Assembly: GCA_031459935.1 (NCBI GenBank)
Contig: JAVKHN010000003.1
Location: 32,289 to 96,288 of the forward strand
Direction: 5' to 3'
From: Candidatus Sysuimicrobium calidum
GTDB lineage: Bacteria; Sysuimicrobiota; Sysuimicrobiia; Sysuimicrobiales; Sysuimicrobiaceae
Length of the DNA stretch: 64,000 nucleotides
Below the pieces are notes generated by a model. The model had not been told where the DNA came from and ran no database searches. It worked only from the letters and a program-made list of their open reading frames with translations. Numbering within the stretch: the first letter of the stretch is position 1; every line of letters starts with the position of its first letter. Positions 38,464 through 38,826 of this stretch are shown here, piece after piece. The position numbers and the translations under genes were made by a program.

Positions 38464-38826
38464 TTATACGGCCGGTCCCTCCGCCCGCTCCACGGGGAGC
38501 CCGGCCGCCATCCACCCCGTGATCCCCTCCGGCATGATGTACACGTTCCGGTACCCCAGCTGCAGGGCCCGACGGGCCGCCCGGTGGCAGGCCCTTCAGC
38601 GGGGCCCCGAGCAGTAGAACACCAAGGTTGCGTCCCGATCCGGGGGGAGATCCCCCGCGGTGAACCCACCGGGATCCAGGTGCCGGGCACCGGGCACGTG
38701 GCCGGCGGCCCAGCGCCGGCGGTGGTTGTTGTCGAAGACGTAGAACCCCGGCTTACCGAGGCGCTCCGCCACCTCCTGCACGCTCATCCGCGGAAGGTCC
38801 TGGGACACGTGGATCACCTCCTGCAT
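38464..38826 (-). pseudogene. Single-domain rhodanese (sulfurtransferase) interrupted by an in-frame TGA (38596..38598) inside the active-site loop; a pseudogene, or a readthrough/selenocysteine candidate
   Basis: Translation reads MQEVIHVSQDLPRMSVQEVAERLGKPGFYVFDNNHRRRWAAGHVPGARHLDPGGFTAGDLPPDRDATLVFYCSGPR-TGA-RACHRAARRALQLGYRNVYIMPEGITGWMAAGLPVERAEGPAV-TAA. The 5' and 3' parts are in the same frame, which I verified by hand-translating 38461..38640. Both halves are well conserved relative to the rhodanese fold (catalytic Cys in YCSGPR; C-terminal LQLGY.NVY…GG..W). Confidence 0.5.

What the first reader, a model, noticed from the sequence alone, without database searches (positions are those of the whole stretch)
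38464..38826. Rhodanese gene with an in-frame TGA inside its active-site loop, immediately upstream of uvrB
Hand translation of the minus strand gives a complete, well-conserved single-domain rhodanese (CX4-5R loop YCSGPR…, C-terminal LQLGYRNVY…GITGWMAAGLP). A TGA at 38596-38598 sits five residues after the catalytic Cys, and the reading frame is unchanged on both sides, so this is not a frameshift. There are three explanations: a recent nonsense mutation giving a pseudogene, an assembly error, or programmed UGA decoding. Selenocysteine or Cys readthrough is the interesting case: 'rhodanese-related sulfurtransferase' is a recognised bacterial selenoprotein family, and Sec-rich thermophilic Firmicutes exist. 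The 40 nt downstream of the UGA (AGGGCCUGCCACCGGGCGGCCCGUCGGGCCCUG) can form GC-rich stem-loops, but I cannot judge whether they fit a bacterial SECIS. Conservation of both halves argues against long-standing pseudogenisation.
Basis: partly seen in the sequence, partly recalled or inferred. Interest (0 to 1): 0.6.

Follow-up and report, generated by a model that had tools for sequence, protein, structure and literature searches.

The report
Selenocysteine-containing rhodanese gene, annotated as truncated
The in-frame TGA is almost certainly a selenocysteine codon in a working rhodanese gene, one of a large group of related genes that public annotations cut short at this codon.

Summary
A minus-strand rhodanese gene lies between era and uvrB (probable start GTG 38808, stop TAA 38466-38464). 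It carries one in-frame TGA at 38598-38596, five residues after the catalytic Cys.

Comparative data settle the interpretation:
- The codon in this column is TGA in 133 related genes and TGC/TGT in 35. It is never TAA or TAG.
- All TGA genes continue in frame into a conserved C-terminal half. Direct orthologues have Cys at this position (C-x4-[U/C]-x2-C-H).
- TGA genes carry a GC-rich hairpin with its loop about 24-28 nt from the UGA. It fits the published bacterial SECIS model in 97% of TGA genes and 26% of Cys genes.
- In TGA genes, synonymous codon choice over the hairpin is frozen (0.29 vs 1.18 bits). In Cys genes it is not.
- The window's hairpin, GGCCC-GUC-GGGCC (38578-38566), meets all model criteria, but is unremarkable taken alone.
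- Three independent assemblies are identical here. Three related species at about 78% nucleotide identity keep the TGA, the frame and the era-rhodanese-uvrB order.

This excludes a pseudogene and an assembly error. selA/selB/selD/tRNA-Sec could not be checked: they are absent from the 64 kb and the rest of the genome was unreachable.

The C-x4-U-x2-C-H motif matches none of the five rhodanese selenoprotein forms in a 2026 catalogue, and no NCBIfam model reaches cutoff. I rate it a new variant of a known kind, of moderate interest.

The parts
38464..38808 (-). Selenoprotein gene: single-domain rhodanese of 114 codons including Sec. Probable start GTG 38808-38806, stop TAA 38466-38464. The longest ORF would start at ATG 38826.
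   Evidence: Translation. Pfam PF00581, 51.3 bits. Start inferred from relatives and the GenBank call P0001. Synteny era-rhodanese-uvrB in relatives.
38815..38821 (-). Shine-Dalgarno-like GGAGGTG, 6 nt upstream of GTG 38808
   Evidence: Read directly from the sequence. Function is inferred.
38611..38613 (-). Catalytic Cys codon (TGC) of the rhodanese active-site loop: Cys66, or Cys72 counted from ATG 38826
   Evidence: Invariant column in alignments A1, A3 and A4.
38596..38598 (-). In-frame UGA read as selenocysteine (Sec71, or Sec77 counted from ATG 38826)
   Evidence: TGA in 133 related genes and TGC/TGT in 35 at this column, never TAA or TAG. Cys orthologues with the same motif.
38584..38589 (-). 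Cys-His (TGC CAC) completing the U-x-x-C-H motif
   Evidence: Near-invariant in TGA-type genes and in the closest Cys orthologues.
38566..38578 (-). Predicted SECIS core hairpin GGCCC-GUC-GGGCC: 5 bp, apical loop GUC closed by C-G, 22 nt between UGA and loop, -9.0 kcal/mol
   Evidence: Meets all four criteria of the bacterial SECIS consensus (criteria, scan). Conserved in relatives L083 and L085, weakened to 4 bp in L088. Not significant alone.
38564..38595 (-). Alternative longer hairpin from the minimum-energy fold, nt +4 to +35 with apical loop CGG. It overlaps the core hairpin and is not conserved in relatives.
   Evidence: Fold. Two pairs, including one in the 4-bp upper stem, are broken in L083 and L085 (read by eye from the sequences).
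38464..38595 (-). 43 codons plus stop translated only if the UGA is decoded. They encode the C-terminal third of the rhodanese fold (..LGYRNVYIMPEGITGW..).
   Evidence: GC3 0.93. dN/dS about 0.4 against relatives. Aligns with full-length Cys homologues.

Best explanation
The gene encodes a cytoplasmic single-domain rhodanese that contains selenocysteine.

Decoding (inferred from the established bacterial mechanism). While the ribosome has UGA 38598-38596 in its A site, the elongation factor SelB carrying Sec-tRNA(Sec) binds the apical loop of a GC-rich hairpin about 20 nt downstream (38578-38566). Sec is inserted and translation continues for 43 codons to the TAA. Without selenium or the machinery, a 70-aa fragment lacking the last third of the fold would be made.

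Protein function (inferred). Sec sits at the last position of the six-residue active-site loop that cradles the catalytic Cys. It begins a U-x-x-C-H motif at the start of the following helix. The most likely chemistry starts with the catalytic Cys taking up a sulfane sulfur (or selenium) as a persulfide. Sec then attacks or resolves it, forming a selenenylsulfide with the loop Cys or with Cys+3. A thiol reductant then re-reduces this bond. That would make the enzyme a redox-coupled sulfurtransferase or persulfide reductase rather than a plain thiosulfate:cyanide transferase. A metal or metalloid site formed by Cys, Sec, Cys and His is a second possibility.

Shown: the conserved decoded UGA, the Sec/Cys pairing and the RNA-level constraint. 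Inferred: SelB recognition and the chemistry.
For: 1. Sec/Cys column. 45 of 80 species-representative genomes and 80 of 80 metagenome loci have TGA at this column, and 35 have TGC/TGT. There is no TAA or TAG. About 45 truncated database proteins all end at the same column. 575 hits to a Myxococcota-type query are mostly 68-72 aa truncations.
2. All TGA genes continue in frame with a conserved sequence, U-H-[SA]-C-H-AGAGRA..LGY..VMPDGIAGWEK.
3. Cys orthologues carry the identical motif: P0122 has FYCWGPGCHSCH and P0130 has FYCANEQCMACH.
4. In the SECIS-model scan, 97% of 116 unique TGA genes pass, with mean energy -12.8 kcal/mol and the loop fixed at +24..+28. Only 26% of 35 Cys genes pass, with mean -5.2.
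5. Codon entropy over the hairpin codons +5..+10 is 0.29 bits against 1.18 elsewhere (p = 7e-6), and the Gly codon there is GGG in 99% of genes. Cys-type genes show no such freeze (1.78 vs 1.48 bits).
6. Divergent clades place different sequences in a hairpin at the same distance: the window clade GGCCC-GUC-GGGCC, L047 CGCCGCCC-GGC-GGGCGGCG, the Myxococcota type GGGCGC-CGGGC-GCGCCC, L168 and L169. L016 and L017 show a G-C to A-U double change.
7. In the window clade, two other MAG assemblies are 100% identical over 700 nt. L083, L085 and L088 are about 78% identical and keep the TGA, the frame and the era-rhodanese-uvrB order.
8. After the TGA, dN/dS is about 0.4 and dS is depressed (0.33 against 1.1 upstream).
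9. TGA is an ordinary stop for most other genes in the window, which excludes a reassigned genetic code.
Against: - No selA, selB, selD or tRNA-Sec lies in the 64-kb window or in any fetched locus. The rest of this genome could not be searched, so the machinery is unverified.
- The window's own hairpin is not statistically unusual. 24% of synonymous resamplings of the same peptide give an equally good SECIS-like hairpin. The fold z-score is -1.4, and the 48-nt minimum free energy lies in the top 4%.
- Column-wise covariation in the hairpin is weak because it is nearly invariant.
- No Rfam SECIS family matches.
- There is no experimental evidence of selenium incorporation for any member.
- The proposed chemistry rests on motif position only.
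Confidence: 0.88

Rival explanations
1. Pseudogene: a nonsense mutation has inactivated the rhodanese, and the downstream 43 codons are decaying non-coding DNA.
For: GenBank and other pipelines call only the 70-aa N-terminal ORF. No Sec machinery is seen in the window.
Against: The same TGA, and never another stop, occurs in 133 genes from several phyla, with no frameshift or second stop before the shared C-terminus. After the TGA, GC3 is 0.93 and dN/dS is about 0.4. Three related species keep it in the same syntenic position.
Confidence: 0.03
2. Assembly or sequencing error: the true codon is TGC or TGT.
For: The window comes from a metagenome-assembled genome, and single-base errors do occur in such assemblies.
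Against: Two other independently assembled MAGs (GCA_031458675.1, GCA_031460155.1) are identical over 700 nt including the TGA. Related contigs from JGI, ENA and Logan data sets also have TGA.
Confidence: 0.01
3. UGA is decoded, but not as selenocysteine. Examples are near-cognate read-through by tRNA-Trp or tRNA-Cys, or Cys inserted through the Sec pathway using thiophosphate, with the hairpin acting as a read-through stimulator.
For: Sec machinery is unverified for this genome. The evidence shows decoding and an RNA element, not the identity of the inserted residue. The window's hairpin is not distinctive on its own.
Against: The column pairs specifically with Cys in homologues and sits in a redox-type U/C-x-x-C motif next to a catalytic Cys, which is the hallmark of Sec. 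The hairpin geometry fits the SelB-type consensus: loop 3-5 nt, G in the first two loop positions, 20-22 nt spacing. Rhodanese selenoproteins, including one with U-x4-U spacing, are already catalogued. No bacterial system is known that maintains hundreds of UGA codons at one Cys-equivalent site without Sec (my own knowledge).
Confidence: 0.05
4. The 70-aa N-terminal fragment is the functional product, and the TGA is a true stop with conserved downstream sequence serving another role.
For: Annotation pipelines report it as such.
Against: The fragment stops inside the active-site loop and lacks the last helix-strand-helix of the rhodanese fold. The Pfam match covers only profile positions 1-70 of 102. 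The downstream sequence is conserved at the protein level and aligns with the C-terminal part of full-length homologues.
Confidence: 0.02

Closest known systems
[quoted passage not shown]
   Same: It has a rhodanese domain with a Sec five residues after the catalytic position. The spacing U-x4-U matches C-x4-U here. It is the best NCBIfam hit to the C-terminal two thirds of the window protein (E = 2e-14, residues 60-115 against profile positions 104-159).
   Different: TsoB is a 572-position fusion protein with two Sec residues. The window protein is a 114-aa single domain with Cys at the catalytic position and one Sec. It scores 52.6 bits against a cutoff of 805. I could not see the residue-level alignment, so column identity is inferred from spacing only.
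Rhodanese-related (seleno)protein, LYCAU type (NCBIfam NF041203; 'form 3', motif CxU)
   Same: It is a single-domain rhodanese of about 126 aa with Sec close to the catalytic Cys. It matches over nearly the whole length of the window protein (residues 6-114, E = 4e-14).
   Different: Its Sec is two residues after the Cys (C-A-U), not five. The score is 52.3 bits against a cutoff of 115, so the window protein is not a member.
Rhodanese-like selenoprotein forms 1, 2 and 4 (Pfam PF00581 only; motifs UxxS, UxxG, UxxG; Zhang & Gladyshev lineage of predictions, PMC13188914 Table 1)
   Same: They are predicted bacterial selenoproteins with a rhodanese domain. Form 1's UxxS could be the same column as here, because Cys homologues of a sister group read C-x4-C-G-A-S.
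   Different: The motif here is UxxC(H). By the catalogue's own rule, a different Sec motif means a different subfamily. The representative sequences (WP_010941598.1, MBM9537886.1, MCY3690685.1) could not be fetched, so this comparison is untested.
Cys-type homologues of the same rhodanese clade (FYC-x4-C-x2-[C/S/A]-[H/R/P])
   Same: They share the fold, length and catalytic loop, with Cys exactly where the window has TGA. Some share the full C-x4-C-x2-C-H motif.
   Different: They have no UGA, no conserved hairpin and no synonymous-site freeze. Many carry signal peptides, which the window protein lacks.
E. coli fdhF-type bacterial SECIS (consensus model of Zhang & Gladyshev 2005, as summarised in PMC13188914)
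   Same: It is a hairpin inside the coding region just after the UGA, with a small apical loop containing G followed by G or U, and 16-37 nt spacing. The window loop C-GUC-G fits the pattern N1-G-[G/U]-N-N2 with N1 and N2 paired.
   Different: There is no sequence similarity to fdhF, and the window stem is short (5 bp). No Rfam model matches. SelB binding is untested.

Membership tests
Bacterial selenoprotein gene (Sec-UGA plus SECIS) | In-frame UGA with conserved coding sequence on both sides | tested here: met
Bacterial selenoprotein gene (Sec-UGA plus SECIS) | UGA column aligns with Cys in homologues, and other orthologues also use TGA | tested here: met
   133 TGA, 35 TGC/TGT and no TAA/TAG. 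Cys orthologues have the same motif.
Bacterial selenoprotein gene (Sec-UGA plus SECIS) | Downstream hairpin fitting the bSECIS consensus: loop 3-9 nt, stem 4-16 bp, G in the first two loop positions, 16-37 nt spacing, energy <= -7.5 kcal/mol | tested here: met
   The window has a 5-bp stem, loop GUC, 22-nt spacing and -9.0 kcal/mol (criteria). This is not significant for the window alone. It is significant at family level.
Bacterial selenoprotein gene (Sec-UGA plus SECIS) | selA, selB, selD and tRNA-Sec present in the same genome | not testable with these tools
   None are in the 64-kb window or in the fetched loci. The genome is not in the searchable species-representative set (no near-identical hit), and collection scans were exhausted.
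Bacterial selenoprotein gene (Sec-UGA plus SECIS) | Selenium actually incorporated (75Se labelling or mass spectrometry) | not testable with these tools
   Requires experiment.
Rhodanese homology domain (Pfam PF00581) | Profile match above the gathering score, with the catalytic Cys in the active-site loop | tested here: met
   51.3 bits against 22.2, residues 15-107. The Cys is invariant in A1, A3 and A4.
NF041203 rhodanese_LYCAU (catalogue form 3) | Score at or above 115 bits and a C-x-U motif | tested here: not met
   52.3 bits for the window protein and 34-43 bits for relatives. The motif here is C-x4-U.
NF045694 seleno_TsoB (catalogue form 5) | Score at or above 805 bits, rhodanese/DsbD-like fusion of about 570 aa, two Sec (U-x4-U) | tested here: not met
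   52.6 bits, single domain of 114 aa, one Sec. Only the x4 spacing is shared.
Catalogue forms 1, 2 and 4 (PF00581; UxxS or UxxG) | Sec-related motif UxxS or UxxG | tested here: not met
   The window has URAC and relatives have UH[SA]C. Motifs are taken from PMC13188914 Table 1.
Catalogue forms 1, 2 and 4 (PF00581; UxxS or UxxG) | Sequence relatedness, and the same Sec column, compared with the representative proteins | not testable with these tools
   The representative accessions could not be retrieved. Form 1 may share the column (reasoning).

The most novel reading that the evidence does not exclude
C-x4-U-x2-C-H rhodaneses are a selenoprotein subfamily that has not been catalogued. They appear obligately Sec-dependent in soil Myxococcota and occur in an Armatimonadota-labelled lineage. 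They are part of a much wider set of rhodaneses that use Sec at the +5 loop position, including secreted forms and AHSA1-rhodanese fusions. In these proteins Sec, two Cys and a His would form a new selenium-based persulfide-resolving or metal(loid)-binding centre. The SECIS hairpin also constrains the protein sequence it overlaps (A-G-R-A).
Probability: 0.45. Interest if true: 0.6.

Novelty: new variant of a known kind. Interest (0 to 1): 0.5.

Why it matters
- **Annotation.** GenBank, JGI and ENA pipelines cut this gene and hundreds of relatives to about 70-aa fragments. No NCBIfam model covers them. A dedicated model would repair many annotations and add to the selenoproteomes of Myxococcota, Acidobacteriota and this Armatimonadota-labelled lineage.
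- **Biochemistry.** The family places Sec at the end of the rhodanese active-site loop next to the catalytic Cys, inside a U-x-x-C-H motif. It gives clean natural Sec/Cys pairs for asking what selenium adds to persulfide chemistry.
- **RNA.** The very strong synonymous-site freeze over a 17-nt hairpin, shared by divergent subfamilies, gives a well-defined SECIS variant for SelB-binding studies.
- **Scope.** This is not a new principle. Rhodanese selenoproteins and bacterial SECIS elements are established.

Tried and rejected
- **Sec machinery in the held DNA.** ARAGORN and Rfam on the window found no tRNA and no RNA family. ARAGORN on all loci found no tRNA-Sec.
- **Sec machinery among window proteins.** Pfam on 20 window proteins showed only housekeeping genes (dnaJ, prmA, carAB, arg genes, uvrABC, Lhr, Lon-like, transporters) and no SelA, SelB or SelD.
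- **Other recoded genes.** I looked for other in-frame-TGA genes in the window. The three other TGA-joined pairs are simply adjacent genes.
- **Rfam at a permissive threshold** over the locus gave only chance hits.
- **PDB sequence search** found no close solved relative with the C-x4-C motif. The best hit was 6mxv at 55 bits.
- **Comparison with catalogued rhodanese selenoproteins.** The Haft & Tolstoy 2025 paper is not held. Older papers give only table entries. A profile search with CGAS-type Cys forms returned no named Geobacter protein.
- **Gene neighbourhood.** It gave no functional clue. The window clade has cdd-era-rhodanese-uvrB. Myxococcota have dCMP deaminase, DUF882 peptidase, rhodanese, ECF sigma factor and a kinase.
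- **Window minimum-energy fold.** The long hairpin was rejected as the SECIS core because relatives break its upper stem.

Full report
**1. What is in the sequence**

On the minus strand, 38826-38464 translates as MQEVIHVSQDLPRMSVQEV...ATLVFYCSGPR*RACHRAARRALQLGYRNVYIMPEGITGWMAAGLPVERAEGPAV*. There is one internal TGA, at 38598-38596, and the frame does not change.

With Cys placed at the stop, the product matches Pfam Rhodanese over residues 15-107 (51.3 bits, gathering score 22.2). The first 76 residues alone reach only profile position 70 of 102. The gene lies between era (ends 38855) and uvrB (starts 38436).

The likely start is GTG 38808. It is preceded by GGAGGTG at 38821-38815, and it is the start used by the GenBank call and by relatives. 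This gives a 114-aa protein with Cys66, Sec71, Cys74 and His75. The gene ends with TAA followed directly by TGA.

The 43 codons after the internal TGA have GC3 of 0.93 in a 69.6% GC window. TGA ends most other genes in the window, so the genetic code is standard. The other same-frame pairs joined by TGA are simply adjacent genes such as argD and argG.

**2. Comparative evidence that the TGA is decoded**

A protein search with the read-through sequence returned about 45 diverse proteins of 68-76 aa. All of them end immediately after FYCSGPx. It also returned about 30 full-length proteins with FYCSGPLCRKAPNAARRA, which have Cys in that column.

I then looked at the DNA:
- In 80 species-representative genomes the codon at this column is TGA in 45, TGC in 34 and TGT in 1. 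The TGA genomes are mostly Kofleriaceae, Haliangiales and other Myxococcota MAGs, plus one Acidobacteriota MAG.
- In 80 metagenome contigs it is TGA in all 80.
- Adding the window and the seven loci fetched through truncated proteins gives 133 TGA genes (116 unique sequences around the codon) against 35 Cys genes. There is no TAA or TAG.

Every TGA gene continues in frame to a shared C-terminus: U-H-[SA]-C-H-AGAGRA..LGY.NV.VMPDGIAGWEKAKQPVE.G.

A second search found direct Cys orthologues carrying the same motif. P0122 has FYCWGPGCHSCH at 61% identity over full length. P0130 and its relatives have FYCANEQCMACH. This is the standard Sec/Cys signature used to define selenoprotein families (method described in PMC13188914).

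**3. The window's own clade**

Two other GenBank MAG assemblies (GCA_031458675.1 and GCA_031460155.1) are 100% identical to the window over 700 nt, including the TGA. This excludes an assembly error.

Three related species are about 78% identical at the nucleotide level: L083/L084 from JGI, L085/L086 from Logan and L088/L089 from ENA. They keep the gene order cdd-era-rhodanese-uvrB-uvrA, the TGA and the in-frame sequence U[RT]ACHRAAR[RL]A[LI]Q[LM]GYRNVYIMPEGI[TS]GW.

Against these relatives, dN/dS after the TGA is about 0.4. dS is 0.33 after the TGA against 1.1 before it, as expected if an RNA structure also constrains silent sites.

**4. The SECIS element**

The published bacterial SECIS consensus requires four things (PMC13188914 Fig. 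2A):
- an apical loop of 3-9 nt on a 4-16 bp stem;
- a G in the first two loop positions, usually in the pattern N1-G-[G/U]-N-N2;
- 16-37 nt between the UGA and the loop;
- a folding energy of -7.5 kcal/mol or lower.

I scanned all sequences with these rules:

| Group | Number | Pass the model | Mean best energy (kcal/mol) | Loop position |
|---|---|---|---|---|
| TGA genes | 116 unique | 97% | -12.8 | start +24, length 5 in 109 genes, usually CGGGC |
| Cys genes | 35 | 26% | -5.2 | scattered |

The window's hairpin is GGCCC-GUC-GGGCC at nt +21 to +33, which is 38578-38566. It has 22-nt spacing and -9.0 kcal/mol, and its loop C-GUC-G fits the preferred pattern.

Divergent lineages build a hairpin at the same distance from different sequences: L047 has CGCCGCCC-GGC-GGGCGGCG, L090 has the loop GUCGC, L168 has GGCGC-CGUGC-GCGCC and L169 has AGCGC-CGGGC-GCGCU.

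In 105 Myxococcota-type genes, codon entropy at the amino-acid-conserved codons +5 to +10 is 0.29 bits. At other four- and six-fold degenerate codons it is 1.18 bits (Mann-Whitney p = 7e-6). The Gly codon in the hairpin is GGG in 99% of genes, while other Gly codons vary freely. The same codons in Cys-type genes show no freeze (1.78 against 1.48 bits).

Formal pair counting shows 92.7% of cells paired, several G-U variants and one G-C to A-U double change. Covariation is otherwise weak, because the hairpin hardly varies.

There are caveats for the window taken alone:
- 24% of synonymous resamplings of the same peptide give an equally good hairpin, although the 48-nt fold energy lies in the top 4%.
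- The shuffle z-score is only -1.4.
- The minimum-energy fold is a different, longer hairpin that relatives do not conserve.
- No Rfam SECIS model matches.

**5. What could not be shown**

No selA, selB, selD or tRNA-Sec lies in the 64-kb window or in about 1.5 Mb of fetched loci. The window's genome is not among the species representatives that could be scanned, because one search gave no near-identical hit. The rest of it was therefore out of reach, and the presence of the machinery is inferred from the conservation pattern only.

**6. Likely function (inference)**

Sec occupies the last position of the six-residue active-site loop, C-S-G-P-x-U. In characterised rhodaneses this position usually holds Ser, Thr or Arg facing the catalytic Cys (my own knowledge). 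Sec also begins a U-x-x-C-H motif, which resembles thiol-disulfide redox motifs.

The best reading is a redox-coupled sulfurtransferase or persulfide reductase, in which Sec resolves or relays the sulfur carried by the catalytic Cys. A Cys/Sec/Cys/His metal or metalloid site is an alternative.

C-x-x-C-H is also the heme-c attachment signature. The window protein has no signal peptide, so heme attachment is unlikely for it. Some secreted Cys paralogues do have signal peptides.

Gene neighbourhoods are housekeeping and differ between clades, so they give no functional clue.

**7. Relation to what is known**

Rhodanese-type selenoproteins have been predicted since 2005. The May 2026 catalogue (PMC13188914 Table 1) lists five forms:

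| Form | Motif | Model or representative |
|---|---|---|
| 1 | UxxS | WP_010941598.1 |
| 2 | UxxG | MBM9537886.1 |
| 3 | CxU | NF041203 |
| 4 | UxxG | MCY3690685.1 |
| 5 | UxxxxU | TsoB, NF045694 |

The window protein and its relatives hit NF041203 and NF045694 far below their cutoffs: 52 bits against 115 and 805 for the window protein, and 34-43 bits for relatives. No other NCBIfam model covers them.

Their motif, C-x4-U-x2-C-H, is not in the catalogue. Under that group's own rule, a different Sec motif defines a different subfamily. TsoB shares the x4 spacing, so a Sec at this loop position may already be known in a different architecture. Form 1's UxxS might be the same column in a sister group, because Cys homologues there read C-x4-C-G-A-S. 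I could not retrieve those sequences to test this.

I therefore rate the finding a new variant of a known kind, with the caveat that it could fall to a new member of a known kind.

**8. Breadth**

An exhaustive profile search with the N-terminal halves found 1017 cluster representatives at E <= 1e-3. Dozens of them, from other subfamilies, also end exactly four residues after the catalytic Cys: FYCANEH, FYCHNAL, FYCASPS and FYCLSPF. They include lipoprotein-like forms and AHSA1-rhodanese fusions.

The two that I checked at DNA level both have TGA, in-frame continuation and the hairpin. Sec at the +5 loop position thus seems widespread in this rhodanese clade, and it is systematically annotated as a truncation.

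**9. Verdict**

Pseudogene and assembly error are rejected. Interest is moderate. The mechanism is established biology, but the subfamily appears uncatalogued, is widely mis-annotated, and offers a well-defined SECIS variant and natural Sec/Cys pairs in a persulfide-handling active site.

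Noticed in passing
Proteins P0244-P0377; L168:337-339; L169:2443-2445: Many other rhodanese subfamilies are cut off exactly four residues after the catalytic Cys. They include secreted or lipoprotein forms (FYCANEH|) and AHSA1/SRPBCC-rhodanese fusions (FYCLSPF|). 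The two checked at DNA level have TGA, in-frame continuation (HACHHGAVRA.., LTAHLSAGRA..) and the same hairpin at +19..+33. Sec at the +5 loop position therefore seems far wider than the window's subfamily.
   Followed up: partly
window 38584-38598 (-); P0130, P0150, P0193: The conserved U/C-x-x-C-H equals the heme-c attachment signature CXXCH. Several Cys paralogues have signal peptides, so covalent heme cannot be excluded for them. The window protein has no signal peptide.
   Followed up: no
L083:10360-14106: In a relative of the window organism, the uvrB gene just downstream of the rhodanese is 1248 aa and carries Intein_splicing and LAGLIDADG domains. The window's uvrB (36328-38436, 702 aa) has no intein.
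   Followed up: no
window 38461-38466 (-): The rhodanese gene ends with tandem stops TAA TGA, 27 nt before the uvrB ATG at 38436.
   Followed up: no
Alignment A2 columns 25-43; The peptide over the hairpin differs systematically between Sec forms (A-G-A-G-R-A, or A-A-R-R-A in the window clade) and Cys forms (P-N-A-A-R-R-A). This suggests that the SECIS constrains the protein sequence it overlaps.
   Followed up: partly
L001-L051 Myxococcota loci, about -1.4 kb to +2.3 kb around the gene: The conserved same-strand neighbourhood in Myxococcota is dCMP deaminase, a DUF882/Peptidase_M15_2 protein, the Sec-rhodanese, an ECF-type sigma factor and a Ser/Thr kinase. The window clade also has a cytidine deaminase two genes upstream (cdd-era-rhodanese). 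This may be coincidence.
   Followed up: partly
window 22773-26834: This 4-kb stretch stood out because no ORF passed the GC3/GC2 coding filter. It holds plus-strand genes for FtsX-like ABC permeases and an ABC ATPase, with lower GC3 than the surrounding minus-strand genes.
   Followed up: partly
window 59731-60486 (-): A TauE/SafE-family sulfite exporter gene lies about 21 kb from the rhodanese. It is the only other sulfur-related gene seen in the window, and there is no evident link between the two.
   Followed up: no
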